A stretch of DNA of 64,000 nucleotides from a virus. The position numbers and the translations under genes are program-made. Positions 6,559-63,842 of this stretch are shown here, piece by piece. Position 1 is the stretch's first letter, and each line of letters begins with the position of its first letter. The notes beneath the pieces were generated by a model. It worked only from the letters and a program-made list of their open reading frames with translations, was not told the origin of the DNA and made no database searches. Location: positions 10,801 through 74,800 of the IMG/VR virus record IMGVR_UViG_3300045988_103931; one strand, written 5' to 3'.

Positions 6559-6579
6559 ATTTGAGAATGACGCAGACGC

Positions 6580-6648
6580 AGAGTGACCGCCGAAAGGCGG
6601 GTAATGCGAGTACCGAAAACGGTAGCGGTCACAACTCCGCAAGAAAGG
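6580..6648 (+). promoter_or_regulatory. conserved structured intergenic RNA element, copy S1
   Basis: AGAGTGA-CCGCC-gaaa-GGCGG-GTAATGCG..TACCG-aaaa-CGGTA-GCGG-tcacaact-CCGC-aAGAAAGG. Homologous to 15828-15916 and 31589-31658. Confidence 0.55.
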
Positions 6649-8891: not shown

Positions 8892-8893
8892 AT

Positions 8894-8959
8894 ATGAACA
8901 ACGATTTACAAATTGTTTATAAAATAATGCAGAATTAAGTGCCGCTTGTGTGGTATAAT
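8894..8959 (+). promoter_or_regulatory. conserved promoter/operator cassette, copy B
   Basis: ATGAACAAC-GATTTACA-AATTGTTTAT, GCAGAAT, GTGCCGC-ttgt-GTGGTATAAT. Confidence 0.6.
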
Positions 8960-9013
8960 ATATACAGAACAAAAGAAAAGCCTACGGGCAAAGCGAGAAA
9001 GAGAGAAAATAAA

Positions 9014-9487: not shown

Positions 9488-9546
9488 ATAAAACAATCTA
9501 CTTGCAAAGAACTGCGCTAACGGTTTGACGGGCAGAAAGGTTGACG

Positions 9547-11509: not shown

Positions 11510-12044
11510 AAAAGGAGAAATTAAACTACCATGTTTCGATGTGGTGTTGGTTGACATTGATAAGGTTGTGGCGAATGACTACAACCCCAACCATGTCAGC
11601 GTAAAAAATATGCAGTTACTTGAAGAAAGCATTATAAGCAACGGCTTTTGTTTCCCTGTGGTAACCATACATGATGAAAAGAAAGACGAGTACATTATTA
11701 TAGACGGCTTTCACAGATACACGATATTCAAGGACTATCTAAAGGCAAAGCAGCTTCCTGTTGTTGTACTCGACCACGATTTGAGCAAACGTATGATTGC
11801 AACGGTTCAGTTTAACAGAGCAAGAGGAGTTCATCATGTGGAGCTTATGGGGGATCTTGTGAAAGCGTTGGCGGGAGAGGGAATAACAGACGAACAAATA
11901 GCTGTAAGCCTTGGAATGGAAATGGAGGAAGTGTACAGGCTGAAGCAAATCACGGGCGTTGCAGAGCTGTTTAAAAATCAGTTATACAGTCCTGCATGGG
12001 AAATGAAAGACATGGACAAGAACGTGTACTATCAGGGAGATTGA
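11487..12044 (+). CDS. ParB/Srx-fold protein, IbrB-like (triad 1)
   Basis: AAAGGAG SD. ANDYNPNHV...YIIIDGFHRY...QFNRARG, typical ParB N-terminal domain. Overlaps the upstream gene by 23 nt. Confidence 0.7.
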   Translation: MVKVIQSEKGEIKLPCFDVVLVDIDKVVANDYNPNHVSVKNMQLLEESIISNGFCFPVVTIHDEKKDEYIIIDGFHRYTIFKDYLKAKQLPVVVLDHDLSKRMIATVQFNRARGVHHVELMGDLVKALAGEGITDEQIAVSLGMEMEEVYRLKQITGVAELFKNQLYSPAWEMKDMDKNVYYQGD

Positions 12045-12045
12045 T

Positions 12046-12765
12046 ATGAAAAAAATATACATAGGAGAATACGACAAAACAAAAATTGTCAATGAATATA
12101 TCTCCGAAAACAAAATTGATAAGGTATATATTATCGGAGACGATATATCAATTGACTTTGAGAACAAGGAAAACATAAAATTTTCCGATACCATAATGTA
12201 CAAATATTTCTACAGGCTATTGCAGGAAATCAATAAGGATTCGTTAATCGTACTTAATGAGTGCTTAAAAAAGCAGAACAGATACGATTTAACATATAAC
12301 TGTATCAGACGGTATATGTTACAGACAGACCACCGCTTAATCTTCAACTATTTCCCCATCGTCAAAGAACAAGAAGATTTTATGATCTTGTACGATATGC
12401 TTCAAAACAATCCGTTCTTGAAAGAACCCTATAAATATATCACTGAATTTGAAAATGTTGAAGTTAGCAAGGTTGTATTTGATGTCAACAAAACCGACGT
12501 TGTTTTGCCAGATGAGTGTGAAGCAGAGTATGAGCGTGAAAAAGAAAACCTCATCGGCAAGGTGAATAAAGACCCCGATATAATTCCGAGAGGGTTGTTA
12601 AGATTCAGCGAAAAGAAGAAACCAAAGAACTATGACAGTTTGGCGAAAATTAAGCCAGTGATGAACGTGGCAGTAAGTCAGTTAAAGGTTGATACGTATT
12701 ATTACAACGAATTACTAAACTTTAGAAAGGAATTGACCGATGTCTTACAAAAAATACACGGATAA
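12046..12765 (+). CDS. orphan protein X2 (first gene of triad 2)
   Basis: AGGGAGA SD. Paralogue of X1. Confidence 0.6.
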   Translation: MKKIYIGEYDKTKIVNEYISENKIDKVYIIGDDISIDFENKENIKFSDTIMYKYFYRLLQEINKDSLIVLNECLKKQNRYDLTYNCIRRYMLQTDHRLIFNYFPIVKEQEDFMILYDMLQNNPFLKEPYKYITEFENVEVSKVVFDVNKTDVVLPDECEAEYEREKENLIGKVNKDPDIIPRGLLRFSEKKKPKNYDSLAKIKPVMNVAVSQLKVDTYYYNELLNFRKELTDVLQKIHG

Positions 12766-13855
12766 AACCGTGTTAGAAGCAACGAAAGAGAGAATCAGCT
12801 ACATTTTCGATGAGTTTGAAAACATCATTGTTTCTATCAGCGGGGGGAAAGACAGCGAAGTGTTGTGTTATCTTGCACTTCAAGAAGCAAGGAAAAGAGG
12901 CAGAAAGATAGGCATATTCTTTTTGGATGAAGAAGTTGTTTATAAATCCACCATAGAAATGGTGGAGTACCTCATGAGTATGTACCCCGAAAACACAAAC
13001 AGATTTTGGTTGCAAATTCCTTTTAATCTCACAAACTCAACAAGTTTCGCTGACGGGCAGGTGAATTGTTGGGAACAGGCAAAAAAACCTGTATGGATGC
13101 ACAAGAGAAGTGAGAAGAACATACTCAGAAAAACATGGTCGCATGAGACGCATATCGCAGACAAAAACAAAGGTTTTGGCTTCTACGATGTAATGTACAA
13201 CTTTGAATATTCATTTGAAAACACAGCTTTTCTTGTCGGATTAAGAGCGGACGAAAGTTTGAACCGATACAGAACAATGGTAAAGCGCAAAGGCTACAAG
13301 GACATTTACTGGAGTACAAAAAGAGCAGGAACAAATTATTCGTTTTATCCTCTTTATGACTGGGGATTCAATGATGTATGGAAGTTCATCGGAGAAAACA
13401 ATCTGAAATATCATAAGTTTTATGATTTTGCCTACAAAAAAGGAAAGCACATCAATGAGATCAGAGTGTCGAGCTTGACGCACGAAAAAAGTTTCAAGTC
13501 GATTCAAGACTTGCCCGAATTTGAGTTTGATACATACGAAAAACTATTGAAGCGTATAAAAGGCATTTCGTTTGCGCAAGAAACCGCAAAAGACAGGAAA
13601 ATGTTTAAGGTGCAGAAGCTCCCGCAGAACTATAAGTCGTGGAGAGAGTACAGAGATTTTCTACTTGCAACATACCCAGACGAAAGCAAGAAACCTATTT
13701 TTGAAAAACGATTTGCCAAGCATCTTGACAATGAATTTGTTGCAAGACAGCAGTGCAAACAGCTTGTTCTTAACGATTACGAAAATAACTTCCCGGTAAA
13801 AAACACAGAAGACCCGATTATGGAAAGAATCAATTATTGGAGGAAAGTGTTATGA
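12740..13855 (+). CDS. PAPS-reductase-family PP-loop enzyme, IbrA-like (triad 2)
   Basis: VSISGGKDSEV, VGLRADESLNRYR, ARQQCKQLVLNDYENN. Roughly half the residues are identical to 10370-11509 by eye. Confidence 0.7.
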   Translation: MSYKKYTDKTVLEATKERISYIFDEFENIIVSISGGKDSEVLCYLALQEARKRGRKIGIFFLDEEVVYKSTIEMVEYLMSMYPENTNRFWLQIPFNLTNSTSFADGQVNCWEQAKKPVWMHKRSEKNILRKTWSHETHIADKNKGFGFYDVMYNFEYSFENTAFLVGLRADESLNRYRTMVKRKGYKDIYWSTKRAGTNYSFYPLYDWGFNDVWKFIGENNLKYHKFYDFAYKKGKHINEIRVSSLTHEKSFKSIQDLPEFEFDTYEKLLKRIKGISFAQETAKDRKMFKVQKLPQNYKSWREYRDFLLATYPDESKKPIFEKRFAKHLDNEFVARQQCKQLVLNDYENNFPVKNTEDPIMERINYWRKVL

Positions 13856-14385
13856 AGATAGATATTCCGTGCCTTAACATCAAACTTGTTGACAGAGATA
13901 TGTTACAGGCGAATAATTACAACCCGAACAATGTGCCAAAGGATAAGATGGAATTGCTCAAGCAGTCGATTATCGACAATGGTTTTTGCTTTCCTATTGT
14001 AACGATTTGGAGCGAGGAAGATGAGAAGTATATCATCATTGATGGATTCCATAGATATACAATGTGTATGCCGGAGTGGTTGGACATAAAACAAGTGCCT
14101 GTCGTTGTGTTGAAACACGATTTAAGTCAGCGAATGGCAGCAACGATTCAGTTCAACAAGGCAAGGGGAGTTCATGCCGTCGACGGTGACGCAGAAATTG
14201 TTAGAAGTCTAATCGAACAGGGATTGAGCGAGGAAGAAATAAGCAAGCACCTTGGTATCGACATGGAAACCGTACTGAGATATAAGCAACTCACAGGAAT
14301 TGTTGAACTGTTCAAGAACGTTGAATATAGCAAGAGTTGGGAAGTCGGAGAGTTCGACGGAGAGGATGAAAAGGAGGATAGATAA
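13852..14385 (+). CDS. ParB/Srx-fold protein, IbrB-like (triad 2)
   Basis: GGAGGAAAG SD. ATGA overlap with the upstream stop. ANNYNPNNV...YIIIDGFHRY...QFNKARG. Confidence 0.7.
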   Translation: MKIDIPCLNIKLVDRDMLQANNYNPNNVPKDKMELLKQSIIDNGFCFPIVTIWSEEDEKYIIIDGFHRYTMCMPEWLDIKQVPVVVLKHDLSQRMAATIQFNKARGVHAVDGDAEIVRSLIEQGLSEEEISKHLGIDMETVLRYKQLTGIVELFKNVEYSKSWEVGEFDGEDEKEDR

Positions 14386-15017
14386 TGAGCAAATGGGAAT
14401 ACGGCGGCGTATATAAGAATTACGATATGGATGGAGAAATCAATATCGGCGGCGGTATCTTGAAAGTGCATAATATTTTCGATCCGCTCCCTGATTTCAT
14501 GAAAAAAGCGGATTGCATTTTCTGTGACCCGCCTTGCTCACAAGGAAACATAAACAGCTTTTACACAAAAGCCGATAGAACAGATTATCAGACGAGCTAT
14601 GACCCGTTTGAAAATCGTTTCTTTGAGTGTATAGATGAGATAAAGCCTAACACTTTGTTTGTTGAAGTGTTCGCACAAAATGCAGCGAATTTCGCGGACA
14701 GATGCAATGATAGATATGCAAATATCCATGTCTACGAAACTACTTATTATCACAAAAAAGATTGCAAGTGTTTTATCATAGCTTGTTCAAACGTCATCGA
14801 CATACATAATCTGCCGTTTGAGGACATGGACGAAGAGGACGTTATAGCGTGGATAGGAAAGAATATTAATTATGAGTGTATTGGTGATTTATGTATGGGC
14901 AGAGGACTTGTAGGATGGCACTCATATATCAACGGAAAGCCTTTTGTCGGAACGGAAATAAACAAAAAACGGCTTGCTGTGCTTATTGATAAGATAACAA
15001 AACATCCGAAAAATTGA
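14385..15017 (+). CDS. methyltransferase-like protein with DPPC motif (permuted, beta-class order)
   Basis: ATAATG coupling to ParB-2. CIFCDPPCS where amino-MTases carry (D/N/S)PP(Y/F/W). C-terminal GDLCMGRGLVG...FVGTEIN resembles the SAM-binding FxGxG motif followed by G.E motif. Confidence 0.5.
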   Translation: MSKWEYGGVYKNYDMDGEINIGGGILKVHNIFDPLPDFMKKADCIFCDPPCSQGNINSFYTKADRTDYQTSYDPFENRFFECIDEIKPNTLFVEVFAQNAANFADRCNDRYANIHVYETTYYHKKDCKCFIIACSNVIDIHNLPFEDMDEEDVIAWIGKNINYECIGDLCMGRGLVGWHSYINGKPFVGTEINKKRLAVLIDKITKHPKN

Positions 15018-15820: not shown

Positions 15821-15827
15821 TAATTGT

Positions 15828-15916
15828 AGAGTGGCGGCGGCAACGCCGTTAATGCAGTCTAACGCAGATTCAACGCATTAAAACAGTGTTAGAGCGGTCA
15901 CAACTCCGCAGAAAGG
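15828..15916 (+). promoter_or_regulatory. conserved structured intergenic RNA element, copy S2
   Basis: AGAGTG-GCGG-cggcaa-CGCC-GTTAATGC...GCATTAA...GCGG-tcacaact-CCGC-AGAAAGG. Confidence 0.55.
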
Positions 15917-16871: not shown

Positions 16872-17264
16872 GTGAAAAGAGTAAGTAAAATCATGATTGC
16901 GGCGGCATTAATTCTCTCAATGATGGGATGTACGCAAGCTGACATAGTATCAACAAACGTATCAAGAAATGCGGATAACTTCAATGTGTGCCGCAGAATA
17001 ACGGTTATCAATAGCCGCACAGATACGGTTATCTACGAGCTTGAAGGAGTGTTCTCACTGAGTAATGGCTATAATAACGAGCTTGAAGTTATTTGTCAGA
17101 CTGGCGAGAACGAATACAAAAAGCACTTCATTTATCTTACCGATACAGTGTTGTATGTCGTGGAAGATATGAGCGGTGCTGACGTATCTCCATATCATTA
17201 CGAAGTCACATTCTATCCGCAGATGGTTGGTGGTGTTGACGTAGATGTAAAGTGGGAGAATTAA
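16872..17264 (+). CDS. lipoprotein (possible superinfection-exclusion factor)
   Basis: GTG start after ACGGGCAGAAAGG. Signal peptide MKRVSKIMIAAALILSMMGC with a lipobox-like Cys. Confidence 0.6.
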   Translation: MKRVSKIMIAAALILSMMGCTQADIVSTNVSRNADNFNVCRRITVINSRTDTVIYELEGVFSLSNGYNNELEVICQTGENEYKKHFIYLTDTVLYVVEDMSGADVSPYHYEVTFYPQMVGGVDVDVKWEN

Positions 17265-18005
17265 ATGAAATACATATACAAACCGAAAGGCAAGGCAAAA
17301 GAGTACGGAGATTATGCAATTAACATTTACACCGGATGTCCTCACAGGTGCTATTATTGCTTTGCTCCAAGTGTTTTGCGTAAAGACAAAGAAAAGTTTC
17401 ACACTTGCGTTGAACCGCGAGAAAACATTGTAGAGGGCGTAAAAAGACAGGTGGAGCGCGAGAACATTACAGGAAAGTTAATACACCTATGTTTCATTTG
17501 TGATCCGTACCCAAAAGGATATGACAGCACACCAACAAGAGAGATAATCAAAATTCTTAAAGGTGCGGGAAATCATGTGCAGATTCTCACAAAGAATGGA
17601 TTGGACGCTGCACGTGACTTTGATTTGCTTGACGGTGATGATTGGTTCGGAGTGACTTATGCAGGATATGACGAATATGTGCTTGACAGAACATATATCC
17701 CGATTGAAGAACCGGGCGCGGGAAGTCCGCATGATAGGCTTCTTGCTCTTGCGGTAGCACACAATAGAGGAATCAAAACATGGGTATCCGCCGAACCAAT
17801 TATTAACGCTGCCGATGTACTTCAAGTCATGGAATTTGCAGATTATGTTGACCGTTGGAAAGTCGGAAAGATGAATTATCACGAATCTAATATTGACTGG
17901 GCGGCATTCGGCAGACTTGCAGAAGCAACGCTTAATTCGTTACACAAAGAATACTACATAAAAGAAAGTTTAAGAAAGGAAATGGAAAATGGCAACAAAG
18001 ACTGA
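17265..18005 (+). CDS. radical SAM protein (SplB/COG1533-like)
   Basis: TAAATG junction with the lipoprotein gene. IYTGCPHRCYYCFAP CxxxCxxC cluster motif near the N-terminus. About 246 aa. Confidence 0.7.
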   Translation: MKYIYKPKGKAKEYGDYAINIYTGCPHRCYYCFAPSVLRKDKEKFHTCVEPRENIVEGVKRQVERENITGKLIHLCFICDPYPKGYDSTPTREIIKILKGAGNHVQILTKNGLDAARDFDLLDGDDWFGVTYAGYDEYVLDRTYIPIEEPGAGSPHDRLLALAVAHNRGIKTWVSAEPIINAADVLQVMEFADYVDRWKVGKMNYHESNIDWAAFGRLAEATLNSLHKEYYIKESLRKEMENGNKD

Positions 18006-31585: not shown

Positions 31586-31588
31586 AGC

Positions 31589-31658
31589 AGAGTGGCGGCG
31601 GCAACGCCGTTAATGCACACAACGAAAGTTGTACGGTCACAAGTCCGAAATTGGAGGG
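31589..31658 (+). promoter_or_regulatory. conserved structured intergenic RNA element, copy S3
   Basis: AGAGTG-GCGG-cggcaa-CGCC-GTTAATGCAC-ACAAC-gaaa-GTTGT-ACGG-tcacaagt-CCG..GGAGGG. Confidence 0.55.
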
Positions 31659-44137: not shown

Positions 44138-44551
44138 ATGAGAATTAAGTTGGACGAATTTGCTTTCATGCCATTAAGAGCTTACAAGAACGACGCGGGG
44201 CTTGACTTGCGTGCGCCTTATGACGTGTGGCTCGATAGAGAATCATACACCACCATAGACACTGGGGTTCATGTAGAACTGCCACAAGGAACGGTAGGGA
44301 TGTTGAAAAGCAAAAGCGGATTGAATGTAAAACATGGAATTGTAAGCGAAGGAGTTATAGATCAAGGGTACACGGGTTCTATCGTTGTGAAGCTGTACAA
44401 TCACGGCAGTTCTGCTTATAGGATTCATGCAGGAGATAAGATAACACAGCTTGTTATAGTGCCTGTTGTTATCCCAGAAGAAATTGAGGTTGTGGACACA
44501 CTCGAAACAACAGAACGAGGTAATGACGGCTTTGGCAGCACAGGAAAATGA
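44138..44551 (+). CDS. dut: dUTP diphosphatase
   Basis: NDAGLDLRA, GMLKSKSGL, IDQGYTGSI, RGNDGFGSTG, the five trimeric dUTPase motifs. Confidence 0.9.
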   Translation: MRIKLDEFAFMPLRAYKNDAGLDLRAPYDVWLDRESYTTIDTGVHVELPQGTVGMLKSKSGLNVKHGIVSEGVIDQGYTGSIVVKLYNHGSSAYRIHAGDKITQLVIVPVVIPEEIEVVDTLETTERGNDGFGSTGK

Positions 44552-44565
44552 AAGAGGTGGCGTAA

Positions 44566-44991
44566 GTGAAACAATTGGATGAAATAATTGAATTGCGGCG
44601 TGATATAAATAGCATTATCGAACGGCTTTCGGAACTAAAACAAATGACGCAACCGAGAGTACAAACAATTACCGATATGCCCCGTGGCGGCGGTGATAGA
44701 AAAAATGTCATAGAAGAATACATAATAAAGTCGGAAAGACTAAGCAAAAAACTTGATGATAAGAAACATGAGCTTGAAAAGAAATGGACGGTTGTCAAAG
44801 ACCTTTCACAAAAAGCACAACTCACAGAAGCGCAACAGGAGATGATAAAAGCGAGGTTCTATAATGCCTTGCCGTGGAAAAAATGCGTAGAAGTCATGAA
44901 AAAATTATATCCTACAACGGTATGGTCTGAGCAAAAATTATTCCGTATGTATTATGGCGTATTATCTAAGTTTAATAAAACAAAAATATGA
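44566..44991 (+). CDS. late-gene transcriptional regulator-like protein (ArpU/RinA/DUF1492-type, tentative)
   Basis: GTG after GAGGTGG. ITDMPRGGGDRKNVIEEYI and LTEAQQEMIKARF resemble Firmicute phage late activators. Confidence 0.4.
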   Translation: MKQLDEIIELRRDINSIIERLSELKQMTQPRVQTITDMPRGGGDRKNVIEEYIIKSERLSKKLDDKKHELEKKWTVVKDLSQKAQLTEAQQEMIKARFYNALPWKKCVEVMKKLYPTTVWSEQKLFRMYYGVLSKFNKTKI

Positions 44992-45011
44992 AATATTGTG
45001 AAAAATAGCAA

Positions 45012-45040
45012 TAGACAAAAAGTTAATAATATGATAAAAT
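45012..45040 (+). promoter_or_regulatory. sigma-A-type promoter
   Basis: TAGACA-17 nt-TAAAAT. Confidence 0.5.
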
Positions 45041-45096
45041 GTTATTGTGGAATAACAATATAAACATAATTTGTTTTTCATATTCTCTCTTTCTTG

Positions 45097-45128
45097 AACC
45101 CTGTCGAAGATATCGGCGGGGTTTTCTT
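45097..45128 (+). terminator. terminator/attenuator about 85 nt downstream of the promoter
   Basis: AACCCTGTCGA-agata-TCGGCGGGGTT (two G.U pairs that work only in the + strand RNA) followed by TTCTT. Confidence 0.5.
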
Positions 45129-45238
45129 ATGATTATTTTTCGGTTTTAAGGGTGTTAACGCTATGAAATGTCAGGGGCGGGAGACGGTAGCGTATATAGG
45201 GGTAAATGTTTGCAACAAAAAACGGCACAGGAGTGATA

Positions 45239-45745
45239 TTGTTGCAAATAGTCAAAATAAAAGTAGAGGATTTAACACCGTATGCAAACAACACAAAAAA
45301 ACATACGGCAGAACAAATTGAGCAAATCAAAAGCAGTATAATGAAGTTCGGGAATAATGACCCGATAGCGATATCAGGGAGTGAAAACCAAATTATAGAG
45401 GGGCATGGACGGTATATCGCATTAAAAGAGTTAGGGCATAGTGAAGCGTTGTGCATTCGGTTAGACCATCTTAACGAAAGTGAACGCAAAGCCTATGCAA
45501 TTGCTCACAACAAAATCAATGCTAACACTGGTTTTGATATGGAACTGCTCAAAGAAGAAATGGAGAGTTTGCAAGACGTTGACTTTGATCTTGAACTTAC
45601 CGCTTTTGCTGATTGGGAACTTGATAACTTATTGAATCCAGTGTCTGATGAAGATTTACAGGATTTTTTTGTTGAAAAAGAACCGAAAGAAAAAGAACCA
45701 AAGAAAACAAAATGCCCATCGTGCGGCTGTGAGTTTGAATTATGA
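45239..45745 (+). CDS. ParB N-terminal-domain protein (DpdB-like candidate) with C-terminal Zn-ribbon
   Basis: IKVEDLTPYANNTKKH...IIEGHGRYIALKELG...AYAIAHNK. CPSCGC at the C-terminus. Start is TTG 45239 or 45242 after AGGAG (the listed ATG 45206 is possible). Confidence 0.7.
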   Translation: MLQIVKIKVEDLTPYANNTKKHTAEQIEQIKSSIMKFGNNDPIAISGSENQIIEGHGRYIALKELGHSEALCIRLDHLNESERKAYAIAHNKINANTGFDMELLKEEMESLQDVDFDLELTAFADWELDNLLNPVSDEDLQDFFVEKEPKEKEPKKTKCPSCGCEFEL

Positions 45746-46479
45746 AACTCTGTCTTGCAGGAACAAGCGGGGTATACGAGAGTACAAGACCGCACTTAAA
45801 ACAAGTCCCGTATTTATTGGAGAGCTTTTATTATTTTTGCCCTTTTCAGAAACCTTTAATTAAAAGTGCTGATTTGTTTTTGCTCGACAGTGGCGCATTT
45901 ACATTCATGAACGGGGCGAAAGGCAAAGTTAATTGGGATGACTACATAAACAAGTATATATCGTTCATAAACGAGAATGACGTTGAACATTATTTTGAGC
46001 TTGATATTGACGTTATTGTTGGGTATGAAGAAGTAAGGCGCATACGAACTAAAATAGAAAGAGAGACGGGGAAGAAAGCCGTTCCGGTGTGGCACAAATC
46101 AAGAGGAATGGATGAATTCAAAAGGCTTGTGAATGATTATGACTATATAGCAATCGGGGGATTTGCTATTAAGCATATCAAACGCAATGAATACCCTATT
46201 ATCAAGAGGATGGTGCAATACGCCTATGATAACGGAGTAAAAGTTCATGGTTTGGGATTCACGCCAAAAGAAGTTACACAATACAAATTTTATTCGGTCG
46301 ATAGCACAACGTGGCTGAGTTGTCGGAGGTTTGGCAGCTTGTTCGTTTATAATAACGGACAAATGAAAATGATAACGCCGAAAAACCATGGAACACGGAA
46401 AGACAAACAAAGAGAGATTGAGCTATTAACTCTCAAAGAGTGGATAAAATATCAAAAATATCTCAGTAGGAGTTGTTGA
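45742..46479 (+). CDS. dpdA: DpdA-like DNA-guanine transglycosylase (TGT superfamily)
   Basis: ATGA overlap with the ParB gene. FLLDSGAFTF (catalytic Asp motif), IAIGG, VHGLGF, YSVDSTTW. Followed by QueF-like and YhhQ-like genes. Confidence 0.6.
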   Translation: MKLCLAGTSGVYESTRPHLKQVPYLLESFYYFCPFQKPLIKSADLFLLDSGAFTFMNGAKGKVNWDDYINKYISFINENDVEHYFELDIDVIVGYEEVRRIRTKIERETGKKAVPVWHKSRGMDEFKRLVNDYDYIAIGGFAIKHIKRNEYPIIKRMVQYAYDNGVKVHGLGFTPKEVTQYKFYSVDSTTWLSCRRFGSLFVYNNGQMKMITPKNHGTRKDKQREIELLTLKEWIKYQKYLSRSC

Positions 46480-46482
46480 CAT

Positions 46483-46794
46483 TTGATAGAGAACACGCAA
46501 CAAGTGAATTTGATTGAAGCAGACAAACAAATCGTTTTATACTGCCCTATCGGAAAAGATTATTATACGGCGATTGTAAACATTGAGTTTATCCCGAATG
46601 AGTATTATATGGACTACATCAAACTCGATCAATTTCTTAATAGATTGAGCGGACTGAGCCTAACAATTGAAGATGCTGCAAGAGATATTTACGATGAATT
46701 GCGGAGTTACAGACCGTCAAAAGCGAAAGTTACGATTGAAGCATTTAGCAACACTCACCTACACGTCAAGGTAACAAAGGGTGATAACATTTGA
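46483..46794 (+). CDS. QueF-like T-fold protein (preQ0 reductase or QueF-L-type amidinotransferase)
   Basis: LYCPIGKDYYTAIVNIEFIPNEYYMDYIKLDQFL parallels QueF CP.TGQPD...Y.P....ESKSLKLYL. The catalytic Cys is kept and the NADPH (QueF) motif is degenerate. Only 103 aa. Confidence 0.5.
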   Translation: MIENTQQVNLIEADKQIVLYCPIGKDYYTAIVNIEFIPNEYYMDYIKLDQFLNRLSGLSLTIEDAARDIYDELRSYRPSKAKVTIEAFSNTHLHVKVTKGDNI

Positions 46795-47429
46795 GGAAGA
46801 CGCAAGAATCTTTAAATATGCTAACAATTGTATTTATCGTATCGCTTGTTATCTCAAACGTAATAACAGGCAAGGTCATTGATACTGGGATAACATTATT
46901 CGGAAATGCAGTGACGATAGCAGGAGCGGTTATCTGCTATCCAGTGTGTTATCTTATCACGGACATTGTTGGCGAGGTATGGGGCAAACGTGAAGCAAAC
47001 AAAATTGTAAGATACGGCTTTATCGGTCAGGTGATAGCAACACTCATTGTTATTATTACAACCTACACGCCGTATATCGATTCTGAAATGCAAGCGGCAT
47101 ATGTAAAGCTATTGGGGCAGAACTGGGTGTTCGTTGTGGGCAGTCTATCGGCTTACCTTGTTAGTCAGTATCTGGATGTTCACATATTCCACAAACTTAA
47201 AAGCAAGAGCAATAAACATAAATGGTTGAGAAACAACGCAAGTACAATGTTATCTCAATTTGTAGATACAGCGATTTTTATTACTATTGCTTTCGGGTTT
47301 GGGTTTGGATGGATATTCGATAATCAAATTGCATTATTTAATATGCTCATTGGGCAATACGTCATTAAGTTATTTATTGCCATTCTGGACACTCCATTCT
47401 TCTATTATTTCACAAGAGAGCGGCGTTAA
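46791..47429 (+). CDS. yhhQ: queuosine-precursor transporter (YhhQ/DUF165 family)
   Basis: Six or more TM segments. YPVCYLITDIVGEVWG, SQYLDVHIFHKLK....WLRNNASTMLSQFVDTAIFITIAF match the YhhQ pattern (Q.LDV.VF, WLR..ST, DT..F..IAF). Confidence 0.75.
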   Translation: MRKTQESLNMLTIVFIVSLVISNVITGKVIDTGITLFGNAVTIAGAVICYPVCYLITDIVGEVWGKREANKIVRYGFIGQVIATLIVIITTYTPYIDSEMQAAYVKLLGQNWVFVVGSLSAYLVSQYLDVHIFHKLKSKSNKHKWLRNNASTMLSQFVDTAIFITIAFGFGFGWIFDNQIALFNMLIGQYVIKLFIAILDTPFFYYFTRERR

Positions 47430-47466
47430 TGCGTCGCTTTGAAACATTTGAACGAGGTATTATTAT

Positions 47467-48261
47467 ATGCTGTCAGATTTTGATATGATAATTCATAATT
47501 ATCAAATGAATAAGGATATGCTTATCATTCCCGTGTCAGATGTTCATTTAGGAAGCAGGGAACATTTACGCGGAGAATGGAAGAAGTTTTGCGCAGATGT
47601 ATTGAAGCAAGACAATGTATTTATCACACTCGGTGGCGATCTGATTAACAACGCTACCCGTTCAAGTGTTTCGAACATATTTGAAGAAACAATGCGTCCC
47701 TCTGAGCAGAAAAAGGAAATGGCAGAAATGCTTAAACCTTTAGCAGAAGCGGGACGCATTCTTTGTGCTGTCAGAGGTAATCACGAAAAGAGAAGTGGCA
47801 AAGACGCGGACGATGACCCTATGTATGATATTATGGCAAAACTTGATCTTGAAGATATATACAGAGAAAACGTAGCGTTTTTAAAAATCTGTATGGGAGA
47901 TAAAAACGGAGACGGCAAAACAAATCCCACATACTGTTTAGCGCTCACTCACGGCGCGGGTGGTGGCATATACACTGGCGCAGCCGTAAACAGAAATGAA
48001 CGCTTCGGAACTATAATAGACGGCATAGACGGACTTATAGTAGGGCATACACACAAGGGAGCTATAACAAAGCCGATGAAGATATTTGTTGATAAATTCA
48101 ATAACAAGATATCATACAAACAATATGTTGTTATATCTTCCGTGCCGTGGTTGCAATATGGCGGTTATGCTCTTGCCAAAATGATGATACCCGCAACGAG
48201 TGGAGAACCGCAGATAATGAAATTACATAGAAACGAGAAAAAGATAGAACTTACTTGGTAA
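47467..48261 (+). CDS. calcineurin-like metallophosphoesterase
   Basis: VSDVHLG, GGDLIN, RGNHE, VGHTH motifs. Confidence 0.75.
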   Translation: MLSDFDMIIHNYQMNKDMLIIPVSDVHLGSREHLRGEWKKFCADVLKQDNVFITLGGDLINNATRSSVSNIFEETMRPSEQKKEMAEMLKPLAEAGRILCAVRGNHEKRSGKDADDDPMYDIMAKLDLEDIYRENVAFLKICMGDKNGDGKTNPTYCLALTHGAGGGIYTGAAVNRNERFGTIIDGIDGLIVGHTHKGAITKPMKIFVDKFNNKISYKQYVVISSVPWLQYGGYALAKMMIPATSGEPQIMKLHRNEKKIELTW

Positions 48262-54263: not shown

Positions 54264-54347
54264 ATAACTCGACCTGAGCAAGTCGATAAACTACTCCATA
54301 TTTACTTTCCTTTCTTGACGGAACGGTGAAATTAAGACGTTCCGTTT

Positions 54348-54418
54348 AGGGCGTTAGAATAATGGCAATTCACGTGGCTTTGACCCACGTCAAACAAGTT
54401 CGAATCTTGTACGCCCTG
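54348..54418 (+). tRNA. tRNA-Gln (anticodon UUG)
   Basis: Hand-folded cloverleaf. Acceptor AGGGCGT/ACGCCCT, D GAAT/ATTC, anticodon stem CGTGG/CCACG with loop CTTTGAC, T arm ACAAG-TTCGAAT-CTTGT. Confidence 0.8.
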
Positions 54419-54423
54419 TTCAT

Positions 54424-54499
54424 GCTGACGTAGCGCAATTGGTAGCGCACATGACTTTTAATCATGGAGTTGTGGGTTCAAATCCCATCGTCAGTACCA
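54424..54499 (+). tRNA. tRNA-Lys (anticodon UUU), CCA encoded
   Basis: Acceptor GCTGACG/CGTCAGT, D GCGC/GCGC, anticodon stem CATGA/TCATG with loop CTTTTAA, T arm GTGGG-TTCAAAT-CCCAT, then ACCA. Confidence 0.8.
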
Positions 54500-54603
54500 A
54501 ATCCCCGTTTCCGGAGCGGGCACGTGAGTACAGATTAGGTATTCCGACAGAGTACGGAGAGAGCGTGATTCCAATGTCAATCATGCAGAAAGCTCTGTCA
54601 CAC

Positions 54604-54675
54604 GGGATATTAGCTCAGTTGGCAGAGCACATGGCTGTTAACCATGTAGCAGAGGTTCGATTCCTTTATATCCCG
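54604..54675 (+). tRNA. tRNA-Asn (anticodon GUU)
   Basis: Acceptor GGGATAT/ATATCCC, D GCTC-AGTTGGCA-GAGC, anticodon stem CATGG/CCATG with loop CTGTTAA, T arm AGAGG-TTCGATT-CCTTT. Confidence 0.8.
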
Positions 54676-54708
54676 TTGGACTTTTGTCCAGAATATTCCA
54701 GAAAACTC

Positions 54709-54737
54709 TTGACAAGTGAAAGTTATTGTGGTATAAT
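54709..54737 (+). promoter_or_regulatory. consensus sigma-A promoter
   Basis: TTGACA-17 nt-TATAAT with TGg extended -10. Between tRNA-Asn and tRNA-Trp. Confidence 0.7.
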
Positions 54738-54789
54738 GTGTTAGAATGGATAATTATTGAAATTATTACATCTATTCATCGTGACAAAC

Positions 54790-54861
54790 AAGGGCATAGT
54801 TTAACGTAAAACATCGGTCTCCAAAATCGAAAGATGGTGGGTTCAAATCCCTCTGCCTTTG
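54790..54861 (+). tRNA. tRNA-Trp (anticodon CCA), atypical
   Basis: Acceptor AAGGGCA/TGCCTTT (one G.U), short D arm GTTT-AACGTA-AAAC, anticodon stem TCGGT/ATCGA with loop CTCCAAA, T arm GTGGG-TTCAAAT-CCCTC (one U.U mismatch). Confidence 0.55.
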
Positions 54862-54914
54862 TTACGATGATATAAATAATAGCTCGTCTGCCATGAGCAG
54901 AAGGAGTTCCTAAA

Positions 54915-62463: not shown

Positions 62464-62643
62464 ATGGACGAAGGAAATGTGGTTGTAATTGATAATCTTG
62501 TTTCCACAAGTAGAACTGACGCGCTTTCGGCACGGCAAGGAAAAATCTTGAATGAAAAGATTGTAAACATTGAATCAATAATCGATGATGTTGCAACCGA
62601 TAACGACATTGACGCAATTTTCACAAATAACGCATCGAACTAA
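62464..62643 (+). CDS. small fibre-related protein (59 aa)
   Basis: Below the track cutoff. AAAGGGGGAAAAAC SD. DNLVSTSRTDALSARQGKIL matches DNLTSESTTSALSAAQGKAL in 60402-61238. Confidence 0.5.
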   Translation: MDEGNVVVIDNLVSTSRTDALSARQGKILNEKIVNIESIIDDVATDNDIDAIFTNNASN

Positions 62644-62668
62644 ATTTATAAATTCGGAGGAACATTTC

Positions 62669-63196
62669 ATGTTTATCAAACTTGCTCAACTCACACGATT
62701 CTGGACTAACGCAAAGAACTACATTGCGGACGGCTATGTGGCGAAGGAAACAGGTAGGGGGCTGTCTACAAACGATTTGACAGCCACACTGAAAACAAAC
62801 TATGACGCAGCTTATACGCATTCTCGGACAAACCACGCACCCGCAGGAGCGCAAGCAAACGTCATTGAAACAATCAAGCTCAATGGAACGGCATTAACGC
62901 CCTCAAGCAAGGCGGTCAATATCACCGTTCCGACAAAAGTTTCTGAACTCTCTGACGCTAACGATTATGCGAAGAAGTCACAACTCGGCAACGTCTATAA
63001 GTATTCTGGTTCTGTTGCGAATTATGCTGCTCTGCCCACACTGGGTGCGCTTGGAGCAAATGACCCCGCTCCCGTATATGACTGCGCCGATACAGGCAAA
63101 AACTACGCATGGAACGGAACTGCATGGGATGATTTGGGCGGTACATTTTCCTTGGATGTTGCTACAGACGCACAGATTGACGCTCTCTTTGAGTGA
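62669..63196 (+). CDS. fibre/structural protein
   Basis: ATG 62669 after GGAGGAAC. GLSTNDLTATLKTNYDAAY fibre motif. Confidence 0.55.
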   Translation: MFIKLAQLTRFWTNAKNYIADGYVAKETGRGLSTNDLTATLKTNYDAAYTHSRTNHAPAGAQANVIETIKLNGTALTPSSKAVNITVPTKVSELSDANDYAKKSQLGNVYKYSGSVANYAALPTLGALGANDPAPVYDCADTGKNYAWNGTAWDDLGGTFSLDVATDAQIDALFE

Positions 63197-63215
63197 GTGA
63201 AAGGGAGGCATGATA

Positions 63216-63842
63216 ATGCCCATTGTCGATTTAAACGGGCTGAATCGCTTTCTGAGCAAGGTAAAAACGCTTATCAATGAAAAGATAGCAAATATCAGCA
63301 CACCGACACCGTGGAAATACTCATACAACACAGCGGGTGATGTTTTGGGATTGGTGCGAGATGTTGAAGCGCACTCCGTAACCAAAAGCGTTTTGCCGTA
63401 TGCGGTTGAAGCTACTGGAGTGACGGATGAAGCAAACGCATATCACGACACCACGAATGAAACGTATGCGTCAATGCCAACAGGAACGGACAGTCGAACA
63501 GCAAAGATATATATCGACACACAGATACCTCAAACGGTATCGAACGCGACTATATTATTTAAAATCGGTACAAGCAACATCTCACAGGCTGTATGGAACG
63601 AGAGGAAGTACACTGTTAAATGTGGCGGCGTAACGCTTGCACATGGTGATTTTCCACTCAAAACAATGGGAACGGTCATAACCGTAACAGGAACGCTCAC
63701 ATCGCCGATTATTGAGATAGATATCACGGCAAAGACAACCGTAGATCAGTATGTCAGAATATTCGGTGCGCAAATGAACGCCACTTATACAGCCACAAAA
63801 GAGTGGATATCGTTAATACGAAATAATCAACTTGCGAAATAA
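63216..63842 (+). CDS. hypothetical structural protein
   Basis: ATG 63216, 8 nt after AAGGGAGG. Confidence 0.5.
   Translation: MPIVDLNGLNRFLSKVKTLINEKIANISTPTPWKYSYNTAGDVLGLVRDVEAHSVTKSVLPYAVEATGVTDEANAYHDTTNETYASMPTGTDSRTAKIYIDTQIPQTVSNATILFKIGTSNISQAVWNERKYTVKCGGVTLAHGDFPLKTMGTVITVTGTLTSPIIEIDITAKTTVDQYVRIFGAQMNATYTATKEWISLIRNNQLAK

What the first reader, a model, noticed from the sequence alone, without database searches (positions are those of the whole stretch)
45206..47429. Import-dependent 7-deazaguanine DNA-modification module: ParB-like, DpdA-like, QueF-like and YhhQ-like genes
Seen, four coupled genes:
- A ParB N-terminal-domain protein (EGHGRY) with a Zn-ribbon.
- A TGT-superfamily protein with LDSGAF and VDSTTW motifs (DpdA-like).
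- A 103-aa QueF-like T-fold protein.
- A clear YhhQ/DUF165 queuosine-precursor transporter.

Established: phage DpdA enzymes swap guanine in DNA for preQ0-type bases to evade restriction. DpdB (ParB-like) assists DpdA in bacterial dpd systems. YhhQ imports preQ0/preQ1.

Inference: I see no FolE/QueD/QueE/QueC genes in these 64 kb. The phage would therefore depend on host or imported precursor and make its own inner-membrane transporter during infection. That is an unusual salvage-based route to DNA hypermodification.
Basis: partly seen in the sequence, partly recalled or inferred. Interest (0 to 1): 0.75.

Follow-up and report, generated by a model that had tools for sequence, protein, structure and literature searches.

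The report
Import-fed phage deazaguanine DNA-modification cassette
A roughly 75-kb temperate gut phage carries a four-gene cassette (ParB-like, DpdA-like, a small uncharacterised QueF-L-like protein, and a YhhQ-type importer) that most likely swaps guanines in its DNA for an imported 7-deazaguanine base; the import idea is already published, and the new part is the small protein family, which always sits next to the importer.

Summary
The four genes are real, co-oriented and overlapping.
- **ParB-like (45206/45242-45745):** PHROG 620, E 5e-51.
- **DpdA-like (45742-46479):** PHROG 887, E 7e-52. It has a TGT-like fold, and its catalytic motifs align with Salmonella DpdA Asp95/Phe99 and Leu236/Asp256.
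- **103-aa T-fold (46483-46794):** the model superposes on archaeosine synthase QueF-L (TM 0.88).
- **YhhQ/QPTR transporter (46791-47429):** TIGR00697, E 1.5e-42.

No FolE, QueD, QueE or QueC is detectable in the window. The unseen ~10.5 kb of the genome holds tail genes, so dependence on salvaged or host precursor is supported.

That idea is not new. Papers from 2016 and 2019 proposed it, and Fusobacterium phage phiFN37 has the same gene order with a DpdC-like protein in the third slot.

The new part is the 103-aa protein.
- It belongs to an unstudied family of 269 clusters found on phage or prophage-like contigs.
- The family keeps the QueF/QueF-L catalytic Cys and the base-anchoring Glu but lacks the NADPH motif.
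- It is acidic, unlike the tRNA-binding QueF-L.
- In 27 of 28 loci its gene abuts a queuosine-precursor transporter gene (YhhQ, or QueT once), with a DpdA-like gene nearby.

I read it as a preQ0-capturing or preQ0-converting partner of the importer. The final DNA base is unknown. This is a new variant of a known kind.

The parts
44566..44991 (+). Upstream 141-aa regulator-like gene; context only, not part of the core cassette
   Evidence: PHROG 36 'transcriptional regulator', E 1e-7. Homologous genes precede the cassette in relatives.
45012..45040 (+). Promoter-like site in the 214-nt gap upstream of the cassette (weak evidence)
   Evidence: TAGACA-17-TAAAAT with an extended TG, 10 of 12 matches. 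The number of such sites in the region is no higher than in shuffles.
45096..45124 (+). 12-bp GC-rich hairpin followed by a T-run, between the promoter-like site and the ParB-like start. It may terminate the upstream gene or act as a leader or attenuator.
   Evidence: Terminator-like scan. No Rfam family, including preQ1 riboswitches, matches 44500-47500 at E<=1.
45206..45745 (+). ParB/Srx N-terminal-domain protein (179 aa as listed; probably 167 aa from TTG 45242). It has an EGHGR nucleotide-binding-type motif, an acidic tail and a C-terminal CPSCGC knuckle. Predicted accessory NTPase or DNA-loading partner of DpdA.
   Evidence: PHROG 620 E 4.8e-51; Pfam ParB_N 9.5e-4, below cutoff. 4-nt overlap with the DpdA-like gene. 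The ParB-DpdA pair recurs in phiFN37, Sonali, L017, L023, L024 and L034.
45742..46479 (+). DpdA-like guanine transglycosylase (245 aa, pI 9.3)
   Evidence: PHROG 887 E 7.2e-52. tblastn hits 188 phage records annotated as queuine tRNA-ribosyltransferase or DpdA. AF2 pLDDT 90.7; best Foldseek hits are bacterial TGT, E 2.5e-5. The broad profile's best PDB hit is Salmonella DpdA 7UI4, with D49/F53 aligned to Asp95/Phe99 and L171/D187 to Leu236/Asp256.
46483..46794 (+). 103-aa acidic T-fold protein of the QueF/QueF-L superfamily, lacking the NADPH motif. Near-invariant residues across the family: N4, C21, G24, Y28, D44, Y45, E63, H92.
   Evidence: AF2 pLDDT 92.2. Foldseek top 13 hits are QueF-L 5jyx/5k0p, E 4e-7, TM 0.88, rmsd 1.6 A. 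Profile A2 against PDB: QueF-L E 1e-5. Family of 269 representative clusters. Conservation. Median pI 4.97. Adjacent to a transporter gene in 27 of 28 loci.
46791..47429 (+). YhhQ/QPTR (COG1738) queuosine-precursor transporter, 212 aa
   Evidence: Pfam Vut_1 4e-48 over the full model; TIGR00697 'queuosine precursor transporter' 1.5e-42, score 145.7 against a cutoff of 50.95.
47467..48261 (+). Metallophosphoesterase between the cassette and the small terminase gene; a variable neighbour, not core
   Evidence: Pfam Metallophos 5.4e-8; PHROG 7339. Present in L007 and L010 but absent in L008, L009 and L011-L014.

Best explanation
The cassette is a salvage-fed system that exchanges guanine in DNA for a 7-deazaguanine base.

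Shown computationally:
- Four overlapping genes sit just upstream of the terminase genes.
- The ~75-kb genome has no detectable FolE, QueD, QueE or QueC.
- The small T-fold gene is almost always flanked by a DpdA-like gene and a queuosine-precursor transporter gene.

Inferred mechanism:
1. The cassette is expressed together with, or just before, the packaging genes.
2. The YhhQ-type permease imports preQ0, or a closely related 7-deazaguanine base, from the gut environment. Gut Bacillota hosts usually lack QueDECF.
3. The acidic T-fold protein binds the free base and forms a covalent thioimide between Cys21 and the nitrile, as QueF and QueF-L do. It then either passes the base to DpdA, acting as a cytoplasmic sink that pulls import and shields preQ0 from host enzymes, or converts the nitrile without NADPH to an amide or amidine.
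4. The basic DpdA-like enzyme uses the D49 and D187 pair to swap guanines in replicated phage DNA for that base, assisted by the ParB-like NTPase-type protein.
5. The modified DNA resists host restriction.

My probabilities for the sub-claims:
- The cassette modifies DNA with a 7-deazaguanine: about 0.75.
- The precursor is imported or host-derived rather than phage-made: about 0.8.
- The T-fold binds preQ0 through Cys21: about 0.6.
- The T-fold acts on the free base rather than on DNA: about 0.55.
- The final base is unresolved (dPreQ0, dG+, dADG or another).
For: - Gene identities.
- The catalytic Asp, Phe and Leu motifs of Salmonella DpdA (PMC10164549) align with invariant residues of the window protein.
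- No preQ0 synthesis genes by Pfam over 1-58.6 kb or by tblastn with Sonali QueC, QueD, QueE and FolE against the window and 14 loci.
- The window's radical SAM protein belongs to the PA0069 / 'mobile pair B' family, not QueE.
- The unseen part of the genome is sheath, tube, tape-measure and baseplate genes. Contigs of 74.8-75.5 kb match window plus tail region.
- Census of 28 loci: the T-fold gene abuts a transporter gene in 27 (YhhQ 26, QueT 1). A DpdA-like gene is found wherever upstream sequence is available.
- The YhhQ-to-QueT swap occurs in the same slot.
- phiFN37 has ParB, DpdA, a DUF6884/YaaA-like protein and YhhQ in the same order. Bacterial DpdC is DUF328 (PMC5699537).
- The T-fold keeps Cys21 and Glu63, both aligned with QueF-L.
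- The family is acidic (median net charge -5), while DpdA has pI 9.3.
- One member is fused to three TM-like segments.
- Gut Bacillota mostly lack QueDECF (PMC11130926).
- QueF-L binds free preQ0 as a stable thioimide (PMC5485725).
Against: - There is no experimental evidence that this phage's DNA is modified.
- NCBIfam's DpdA equivalog model barely touches the protein (E 2.5e-3, 16.7 bits against a cutoff of 200), and Pfam gives no hit.
- The Asp that serves as general acid/base in QueF and QueF-L (Asp28) aligns with an invariant Tyr in this family. The His of the QueF/QueF-L 'HE' pair is Ile here. The chemistry may therefore differ from any known member, or the protein may only bind the base.
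- Charge is a crude proxy for DNA binding.
- YhhQ-family substrate range varies (preQ0/preQ1 in E. coli, queuine in Chlamydia; PMC11130926), so the imported base is not known.
- Some relatives carry a QueC-like gene between DpdA and the T-fold. That hints the imported compound could be an earlier intermediate in those phages.
- The host genome, and so its own preQ0 capacity, is unknown.
Confidence: 0.6

Rival explanations
1. The T-fold is a true functional equivalent of archaeal QueF-L. DpdA first inserts imported preQ0 into DNA. The T-fold then converts DNA-bound dPreQ0 to 2'-deoxyarchaeosine (dG+) using free ammonium. This would be a third phage route to dG+, besides Gat-QueC and ArcS-type enzymes.
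For: - QueF-L is the best structural match (TM 0.88, rmsd 1.6 A, same length) and the best sequence match (E 1e-5).
- The catalytic Cys is conserved and the NADPH motif is absent.
- The gene occupies the slot that holds a DpdC-like, DNA-acting nitrile-converting protein in phiFN37.
- QueF-L acts on preQ0 that is already in nucleic acid (PMC5485725).
Against: - The family is acidic (93% of members have pI < 7), whereas QueF-L uses a large positive surface to bind tRNA. That is my recollection of the structure paper's abstract; I could not read the paper.
- The general acid/base Asp is not conserved at the aligned position.
- The gene is tied to the transporter rather than to DpdA.
- One member is membrane-anchored.
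Confidence: 0.2
2. The T-fold is the substrate-binding half of a split nitrile reductase, or some other NADPH-independent converter, that turns imported preQ0 into preQ1. DpdA then inserts preQ1, giving dPreQ1 in DNA.
For: - Three close family members are labelled QueF by JGI.
- All phage QueF proteins characterised so far are reductases, and Vibrio phage VH7D DpdA2 prefers preQ1 (PMC10516641).
- In L020 a Zn-dependent alcohol-dehydrogenase-family oxidoreductase lies in the cluster.
- BFVD holds a 459-aa 'alcohol dehydrogenase' protein with a T-fold-like segment.
Against: - The window cassette has no oxidoreductase partner.
- The NADPH motif E(S/L)K(S/A)hK(L/Y)(Y/F/W) is replaced by a conserved PDY motif.
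- Pfam and NCBIfam QueF models do not hit.
- The profile does not reach B. subtilis QueF in the PDB at E<=1.
Confidence: 0.1
3. The cassette acts on tRNA rather than DNA. The phage imports a queuosine precursor and uses its TGT-like enzyme to modify host or phage tRNAs and tune translation.
For: - The enzyme is TGT-like by fold.
- The phage encodes a tRNA-Asn(GUU), which belongs to a class of tRNAs that receive queuosine.
- PMC6884629 raised the possibility that phages boost Q levels.
Against: - The best sequence-level PDB match is the DNA-guanine transglycosylase DpdA, not a tRNA TGT.
- At 245 aa the protein has no room for the tRNA-binding and Zn subdomains of TGT (360-380 aa).
- It is translationally coupled to a ParB-type DNA-associated protein, as in the bacterial DpdA/DpdB pair (PMC10164549).
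- Detectable relatives include phage lineages with experimentally modified DNA (PMC6884629).
Confidence: 0.06
4. The transporter is incidental, for example a moron or a gene that benefits the lysogen's own Q salvage. The DpdA uses preQ0 made by the host, and the T-fold gene has an unrelated role.
For: - The phage is temperate (serine recombinase and cI-like repressor), so lysogenic-conversion genes are plausible.
- PMC6884629 found no correlation between phage YhhQ and any pathway group.
Against: - The T-fold and transporter genes are adjacent in 27 of 28 loci from very different phages, including ones with PolA or PolIII-alpha replication modules. Where upstream sequence exists, a DpdA-like gene accompanies them.
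- An unrelated Q-precursor transporter (QueT) replaces YhhQ in the same slot.
- The genes overlap and sit inside the lytic gene block next to the terminase genes, not near the lysogeny module.
Confidence: 0.04

Closest known systems
Bacterial Dpd modification module DpdA/DpdB/DpdC of Salmonella Montevideo (PMC10164549), with yhhQ embedded in some dpd clusters (PMC5699537)
   Same: - A TGT-family DNA transglycosylase is paired with a ParB-superfamily protein.
- A third gene follows that is expected to deal with the preQ0 nitrile.
- A preQ0 transporter is sometimes embedded in the cluster.
- The catalytic Asp95/Phe99 and Leu236/Asp256 motifs align.
   Different: - The window DpdA is 245 aa against roughly 406-416 aa, so it lacks the large Ins8 insertion.
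- It scores far below the NCBIfam DpdA cutoff.
- The ParB-like protein is only 167-179 aa, with no DndB/SspE-like C-terminal domain.
- The third gene is a T-fold, not DUF328.
- No restriction genes (dpdD to dpdK) accompany the cassette.
Phage DpdA systems such as 9g, CAjan, Rosebush and Vid5 (PMC6884629, PMC10516641). That these Queuovirinae-type phages carry the DpdA1 subfamily is my own knowledge.
   Same: - A phage-encoded DpdA is expected to insert a 7-deazaguanine after replication to evade restriction.
- tblastn finds these phages at 25-27% identity, and both fall in PHROG 887.
   Different: - Those phages with heavily modified DNA carry folE, queD, queE and queC, sometimes with Gat-QueC, ArcS or QueF.
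- This phage carries none of them. It has a transporter and a NADPH-less T-fold instead.
- I did not resolve subfamily membership (DpdA1 to DpdA4).
Fusobacterium phage phiFN37 (OR492271), genes CDS0147-CDS0144
   Same: - Same order and orientation: ParB-like, TGT/DpdA-like (36% identity), one small gene, then YhhQ (43% identity).
- It also has a PAPS-reductase plus ParB pair elsewhere in the genome.
   Different: The third gene is a basic 144-aa DUF6884/YaaA-like (DpdC-like) protein, not the acidic T-fold.
Archaeosine synthase QueF-L of Pyrobaculum calidifontis (PDB 5JYX, 5K0P; PMC5485725)
   Same: - Same size and T-fold (TM 0.88, rmsd 1.6 A).
- Cys21 is at the identical position, and the base-anchoring Glu is conserved.
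- Neither has an NADPH motif.
   Different: - Only about 20% identity.
- The general acid/base Asp28 is replaced by an invariant Tyr, and the His before the Glu is replaced by Ile.
- The family has its own invariant residues: N4, D44, Y45 and H92.
- It is acidic rather than basic.
- It is encoded next to a transporter on phage or prophage-like contigs, not in crenarchaeal tRNA-modification contexts.
NADPH-dependent nitrile reductase QueF (B. subtilis YkvM, PDB 4F8B) and the phage QueF proteins of PMC10516641
   Same: Same superfamily, and the same catalytic Cys and Glu. The family is acidic like an enzyme acting on a free base; that comparison rests on my own knowledge.
   Different: - No NADPH motif and no N-terminal extension (103 aa against 145-165 aa).
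- No Pfam or NCBIfam QueF hit.
- The structural match is weaker (E 1e-4) than for QueF-L.
YhhQ/QPTR (COG1738) and QueT/QrtT queuosine-precursor transporters (PMC5372724, PMC11130926)
   Same: Full-length, above-cutoff match to TIGR00697 and Vut_1. A distant relative has QueT in the equivalent position.
   Different: It is phage-encoded and fixed next to the T-fold gene. It has no preQ1 riboswitch, unlike many bacterial yhhQ and queT genes; that contrast is my own knowledge. Substrate specificity is unknown.

Membership tests
DpdA (DNA-guanine transglycosylase, TGT superfamily) | TIM-barrel fold of the TGT type | tested here: met
   AF2 model pLDDT 90.7. The best Foldseek PDB hits are Z. mobilis TGT (E 2.5e-5, TMq 0.63). 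Human and mouse TGT and arcTGT also match, and generic TIM barrels are interleaved among the hits.
DpdA (DNA-guanine transglycosylase, TGT superfamily) | General acid/base Asp95 with gating Phe99, and nucleophile Asp256 preceded by Leu236 (PMC10164549) | tested here: met
   Profile A5 aligns 'llDSGaF' with 7UI4 'MGDCGAF', and 'VHgLG...SvDStsW' with 'VHLLG...SIDSTT'. With the 20-residue tag offset these are Asp95/Phe99 and Leu236/Asp256. D49, F53 and D187 are invariant and L171 is nearly invariant (at least 90%) in 16 very divergent homologs.
DpdA (DNA-guanine transglycosylase, TGT superfamily) | Base-recognition Asp130 and His181 | tested here: inconclusive
   H118 is invariant, and an Asp in the ELDID segment (D88 or D90) is always present at comparable spacing. 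HMMER did not align these segments to 7UI4.
DpdA (DNA-guanine transglycosylase, TGT superfamily) | Scores above the curated NCBIfam DpdA equivalog cutoff (bacterial-type DpdA) | tested here: not met
   NF041059 E 2.5e-3, 16.7 bits against a cutoff of 200. The protein is therefore not a bacterial-type DpdA orthologue. It groups with phage DpdA in PHROG 887.
DpdA (DNA-guanine transglycosylase, TGT superfamily) | Exchanges guanine in DNA for preQ0 or a related base | not testable with these tools
   This needs LC-MS of virion DNA or an in vitro exchange assay.
QueF-L (archaeosine synthase, amidinotransferase) | Single-domain T-fold of about 105-110 aa, homologous to QueF-L | tested here: met
   Foldseek top 13 hits are 5jyx/5k0p, TM 0.88, rmsd 1.6 A over 102 columns. 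Profile A2 against PDB sequences gives QueF-L at E 1e-5.
QueF-L (archaeosine synthase, amidinotransferase) | Catalytic Cys21 that forms the thioimide with preQ0 | tested here: met
   C21 aligns with QueF-L Cys21. It is present in 142 of 144 distant family members.
QueF-L (archaeosine synthase, amidinotransferase) | Conserved Asp acting as general acid/base (Asp28 in QueF-L, Asp62 in QueF; PMC5485725) | tested here: not met
   The aligned position is Tyr28, in 122 of 144 members. An Asp two residues earlier (D26) is present in only about half of the family. Another invariant residue, D44 or H92, might substitute, but that is untested.
QueF-L (archaeosine synthase, amidinotransferase) | Absence of the NADPH-binding motif | tested here: met
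   The window has MDYIKLDQFL where QueF has E(S/L)K(S/A)hK(L/Y)(Y/F/W). The family consensus there is IPDY.
QueF-L (archaeosine synthase, amidinotransferase) | Positively charged surface for a nucleic-acid substrate | tested here: not met
   Net charge is -4 and pI 5.0. The family median net charge is -5, and 93% of 233 members have pI < 7. The QueF-L fragment has pI 8.4. This is sequence-level only; no surface calculation was done.
QueF-L (archaeosine synthase, amidinotransferase) | Homodecamer; converts preQ0 in nucleic acid to G+ using NH4+ | not testable with these tools
   This needs biochemistry or multimer modelling.
QueF (NADPH-dependent preQ0 reductase) | NADPH motif, plus a match to the curated QueF models | tested here: not met
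   No Pfam or NCBIfam hit at E<=0.01. The motif is absent. The profile does not reach the QueF chains in the PDB at E<=1.
YhhQ/QPTR (COG1738) queuosine-precursor transporter | Full-length match above the curated cutoffs | tested here: met
   PF02592 4e-48 (positions 2-151 of 152). TIGR00697 1.5e-42, 145.7 bits against a cutoff of 50.95.
YhhQ/QPTR (COG1738) queuosine-precursor transporter | Transports preQ0 and/or preQ1 | not testable with these tools
   Specificity differs between members (PMC11130926). The E. coli-type model NF008406 scores below its cutoff (60.8 against 252).
DpdB (ParB-superfamily ATPase partner of DpdA) | ParB/Srx-type N-terminal NTPase domain with a DGQQR / GxxR-type motif | tested here: inconclusive
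   A ParB_N-type domain is present (PHROG 620 5e-51; Pfam 9.5e-4, below cutoff). An EGHGR motif lies at the expected place. NTPase activity is untested.
DpdB (ParB-superfamily ATPase partner of DpdA) | C-terminal alpha-helical DndB/SspE-like domain (PMC10164549) | tested here: not met
   The protein is only 167-179 aa, and PHROG ParB models cover residues 13-178. No room is left for such a domain. No DpdB or DndB family appears among the NCBIfam hits.

The most novel reading that the evidence does not exclude
The 103-aa protein founds a new functional class within the QueF/QueF-L superfamily. It would be an importer-coupled protein, found on phage and prophage-like contigs, that covalently traps free preQ0 as it enters the cell. 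It then either channels the base to DpdA or converts the nitrile by chemistry not seen in QueF or QueF-L, using the family-specific D44, Y45 and H92 residues. That could yield a 7-deazaguanine derivative, or a route to one, not yet described in phage DNA. Phages of hosts that cannot make queuosine precursors could then hypermodify their DNA using only bases scavenged from the gut community.
Probability: 0.3. Interest if true: 0.8.

Novelty: new variant of a known kind. Interest (0 to 1): 0.6.

Why it matters
7-Deazaguanine DNA modifications are a major way for phages to evade restriction. All characterised cases rely on preQ0 synthesis encoded by the phage or supplied by the host.

This cassette gives a concrete, widespread and testable example of the route that has so far only been hypothesised: a transporter, a base-handling protein and a transglycosylase. 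It occurs in phages of gut and rumen anaerobes whose hosts typically cannot make the precursor.

It also ties phage DNA modification to cross-feeding of queuosine precursors in microbiomes.

Finally, it identifies an uncharacterised enzyme family of 269 clusters. [quoted passage not shown] The product of this family could be dG+, dADG or something new.

Tried and rejected
- **Megablast of the cassette against 50,697 GenBank phages:** no hit.
- **tblastn of the window T-fold and of a divergent member (L015) against the same collection:** no hit at E<=0.01. No deposited phage genome in that collection detectably carries this family.
- **Pfam, PHROG and NCBIfam on the T-fold:** nothing. Identification needed a structure prediction and a deep profile.
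- **Radical SAM at 17265-18005 as a hidden QueE:** rejected. It belongs to the PA0069 / Rv2578c / 'mobile pair protein B' family. The radical SAM in relatives L008 and L009 is NrdG.
- **T-fold as a minimal FolE or QueD:** rejected. GTP cyclohydrolase I matches are fold-level only (E about 1e-4, on much longer targets), and the Cys/Glu pattern is that of QueF/QueF-L.
- **preQ1 riboswitch or other Rfam element upstream of the cassette:** none at E<=1.
- **Closing the genome from the 3' side:** the proteins at 62585-63196 and 63210-63842 are not on record. L036 ends at its contig end. The circle is therefore closed only by matching sizes and by the tail-gene loci L003-L006.
- **The search for related loci with the divergent alignment A2:** failed for lack of a conserved stretch. 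Subgroup alignments A1 and A4 were used instead.
- **The QueF-L structure paper (PMC5167649):** not available. I used the biochemistry paper PMC5485725 instead.
- **DpdA close-homolog profile A3 against PDB sequences:** nothing. Only the broader profile A5 reached 7UI4.
- **DpdA subfamily assignment (DpdA1 to DpdA4):** not resolved.

Full report
**1. The observation**

The window is almost the whole genome of a temperate myovirus-like phage.
- Tail fibre, holin and GH25 lysin genes lie at 1-5.4 kb.
- A block of accessory genes lies at 7.2-26 kb.
- A serine recombinase and a cI-like repressor are on the minus strand at 27.3-29.2 kb.
- Early genes occupy 30-45 kb, and terminase, portal and head genes run from 48.3 kb onward.

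The four flagged ORFs are real and packed like an operon.
- ParB-like (45206-45745) overlaps DpdA-like (45742-46479) by 4 nt.
- The 103-aa ORF (46483-46794) starts 11 nt after an AGGAG.
- It overlaps the YhhQ-like ORF (46791-47429) by 4 nt.

The relatives' gene calls (167 aa) imply that the ParB-like gene starts at TTG 45242. The claimed Zn-ribbon is only a single C-terminal CPSCGC knuckle.

**2. Identities**

*ParB-like.* PHROG 620, E 4.8e-51. Pfam ParB_N reaches only 9.5e-4, below its cutoff.

*YhhQ.* Pfam Vut_1 4e-48 and TIGR00697 'queuosine precursor transporter' 1.5e-42, both above cutoff.

*DpdA-like.*
- No Pfam hit, and only a trace of the NCBIfam bacterial DpdA model.
- PHROG 887, E 7.2e-52.
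- tblastn hits 188 phage records annotated as queuine tRNA-ribosyltransferase or DpdA.
- 4,845 homologous clusters.
- The AlphaFold model (pLDDT 90.7) is closest to bacterial TGT (E 2.5e-5).
- A profile of divergent homologs has Salmonella DNA-guanine transglycosylase DpdA (7UI4) as its best PDB hit.
- In that alignment LLDSGAF falls on the Asp95/Phe99 motif and HGLG...SVDSTTW on Leu236/Asp256 (residue roles from PMC10164549).
- D49, F53, H118 and D187 are invariant and L171 is nearly invariant across these homologs.

*103-aa protein.*
- No library hit.
- Its best PDB sequence match is archaeosine synthase QueF-L. The E-value is 0.03 with the single sequence and 1e-5 with a 72-sequence profile.
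- The AlphaFold model (pLDDT 92.2, beta-beta-alpha-alpha-beta-beta) superposes on QueF-L at TM 0.88 and rmsd 1.6 A over its full length.
- That is ahead of the reductase QueF and of GTP cyclohydrolase I.

**3. No de novo pathway**

- Pfam scans of all ORFs from 1 to 58.6 kb found no FolE, QueD, QueE, QueC or QueF. The remaining 5.4 kb is made up of structural genes.
- tblastn with the annotated QueC, QueD, QueE and FolE of Arthrobacter phage Sonali found nothing in the window or in 14 related loci.
- The only radical SAM protein in the window belongs to the PA0069 / 'mobile pair B' family.
- Contigs that carry a protein identical to window 408-1034 show sheath, tube, tape-measure and baseplate genes upstream of window position 1.
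- Independent assemblies give contigs of 74,756 to 75,463 bp. That matches the window plus about 10.5 kb of tail genes.

The phage as a whole therefore appears to lack preQ0 synthesis genes.

**4. Comparative genomics**

- Close relatives (L007-L014, L016) keep ParB, DpdA, T-fold and YhhQ directly upstream of the small terminase gene.
- Fusobacterium phage phiFN37 has the same order. Its third gene is a basic DUF6884/YaaA-like protein.
- Bacterial DpdC, which converts dPreQ0 to dADG in DNA, is DUF328, the YaaA family (PMC5699537, PMC10164549).
- The T-fold family is large. It has 70 close clusters and 269 representative clusters in a library of 1.8 billion proteins, nearly all 99-115 aa long.
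- I collected 28 loci carrying a family member, including the window. They come from very different phages, including ones with PolA or PolIII-alpha, and a 222-kb contig.
- In 27 of the 28, the T-fold gene is immediately next to a queuosine-precursor transporter gene. The remaining contig ends before that position. A DpdA-like gene is present wherever upstream sequence exists.
- In L017 (Eubacterium maltosivorans type, WP_195540484.1) the transporter is the unrelated QueT (PF06177, 3.9e-27). This non-orthologous replacement is the strongest argument that the slot's function is import of a queuosine precursor.
- Some relatives insert a short QueC-like gene between DpdA and the T-fold.
- One ORF (P0213) joins a QueC C-terminal motif to the T-fold. 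Another (P0247) joins three TM-like segments to it.

**5. What the T-fold is and is not**

- Across the family, N4, C21, G24, Y28, D44, Y45, E63 and H92 are nearly invariant.
- C21 aligns with the thioimide-forming Cys21 of QueF-L, and E63 with the Glu that anchors the base.
- The NADPH motif that PMC10516641 reports in all phage QueF proteins it examined is absent here. That paper also states that no phage QueF sequence aligned with QueF-L. This family therefore lies outside what has been described.
- It is not a plain QueF-L either. The general acid/base Asp (PMC5485725) aligns with an invariant Tyr, and the neighbouring His is replaced by Ile.
- The family is acidic: median net charge -5, median pI 5.0, and 93% of members below pI 7. 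The QueF-L fragment has pI 8.4, and the window's DpdA has pI 9.3.

The acidity, the fixed position next to the transporter and the membrane-anchored variant together favour action on the free, imported base. QueF-L itself binds free preQ0 as a stable but unreactive thioimide (KD 8 uM, PMC5485725). That makes a capture or hand-off role chemically plausible. Conversion of the nitrile to an amide or amidine is the main alternative.

**6. Regulation**

- No riboswitch or other Rfam element lies in or upstream of the cassette.
- The 214-nt gap upstream holds a promoter-like site and a strong hairpin with a T-run.
- The gene before the gap is regulator-like (PHROG 36).

The position next to the terminase genes suggests expression with the late or packaging genes. 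This is an inference.

**7. Comparison with what is known**

- The salvage idea was published for bacterial dpd clusters containing yhhQ (PMC5699537).
- Gut Bacillota mostly lack QueDECF and depend on salvage (PMC11130926). Close homologs of the cassette come from Clostridia and Acutalibacteraceae MAGs and from human, pig and rumen metagenomes.
- Automated pipelines have occasionally labelled related proteins 'QueF' (JGI). A structurally similar virome protein in BFVD (16% identity to the window model) is labelled 'Archeaosine synthase'.
- I found no study of the family in the literature library.

**8. Verdict**

What is new is a conserved triad of DpdA, an NADPH-less acidic QueF-L-like T-fold and a queuosine-precursor importer, spread across uncultured phages. 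I classify it as a new variant of a known kind, with interest about 0.6. It would rank higher if the T-fold turns out to perform new chemistry or to couple import to DNA insertion.

Noticed in passing
window 6577-6640, 15825-15909, 31586-31648 (+): Three matches to the Type-P5 twister ribozyme (RF02684), at 52.1, 37.8 and 49.9 bits against a gathering score of 37.6. All are on the coding strand, in intergenic or low-coding stretches of the phage genome.
   Followed up: no
window 54347-54862 (+): Cluster of four tRNA genes, Gln(UUG), Lys(UUU), Asn(GUU) and Trp(CCA), between the Mu-F-like head gene and the scaffold gene. tRNA-Asn(GUU) belongs to the queuosine-modified class of tRNAs, which bears slightly on the tRNA-target rival.
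   Followed up: partly
window 7629-15017 (+): A second block that looks related to DNA modification or anti-defence. It holds an SNF2 helicase (7629-8891), two tandem PAPS-reductase+DUF3440 genes (10358-11509 and 12740-13855, 56% identical) each followed by a ParB-like gene (11487-12044, 13837-14385), and a gene at 14385-15017 that looked methyltransferase-like to me by eye but had no Pfam hit. Phage phiFN37 also has a PAPS-reductase plus ParB pair near its DpdA cassette.
   Followed up: partly
window 16872-18005 (+): A Phage_VG64-domain protein (PF25682, 4.5e-44) is followed by a radical SAM protein of the PA0069 / Rv2578c / 'radical SAM mobile pair protein B' family. It is not QueE. Its function is unknown.
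   Followed up: partly
L011 5271-6035, L015 5422-5985, L016 7448-8035, L028 1-582, L029 605-1168, L020 7367-8122: Some relatives carry a short QueC-like PP-loop gene (about 187 aa; PF06508 1.8e-13 to 3.6e-16, below the TIGR00364 cutoff). In most it lies between DpdA and the T-fold; in L020 it follows YhhQ. The window lacks it. It hints that these phages import an earlier intermediate, or that QueC-like and T-fold proteins work together.
   Followed up: partly
L017 4769-5107; also L018, L019, L022, L023, L034: A recurrent gene of about 112-140 aa lies between ParB and DpdA, or just upstream of DpdA. It has no Pfam or NCBIfam hit. By eye its 'PHRHVF' segment resembles the QueD/PTPS His motif. 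The label 'QueD-like' is mine and is untested.
   Followed up: no
L020 8122-9084; BFVD entry A0A6J5LEZ6: A Zn-dependent alcohol-dehydrogenase-family oxidoreductase lies inside the L020 cluster (T-fold, YhhQ, QueC, ADH, DpdA). A 459-aa viral 'alcohol dehydrogenase' in BFVD has a T-fold-like segment. Together they may point to a split nitrile-reductase variant.
   Followed up: no
L018 5181-5990 and L019 5187-5996: The 269-aa proteins in the DpdA slot of the PolIII-alpha phages are not linked to the window DpdA by phmmer and have no Pfam or NCBIfam hit. By eye they show 'LMDNG' and 'GCDSAF' motifs. They may be a further divergent DpdA subfamily.
   Followed up: partly
L007 4850-5326, L008 4834-5295, L009 4874-5335; L010 2371-2886: Near the cassette, close relatives carry a dGTP/dATP diphosphohydrolase N-domain protein (PF18909, MazZ-like) or a ThyX, in addition to the dUTPase. 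The window keeps only the dUTPase (44138-44551). Nucleotide-pool genes therefore vary in this module.
   Followed up: no
window 45041-45241 (+): A leader of about 200 nt lies between a promoter-like site and the ParB-like start. It contains a 12-bp GC-rich hairpin plus a T-run (45096-45124). No Rfam family matches. It could be the terminator of the upstream regulator gene or an attenuator controlling the cassette.
   Followed up: partly
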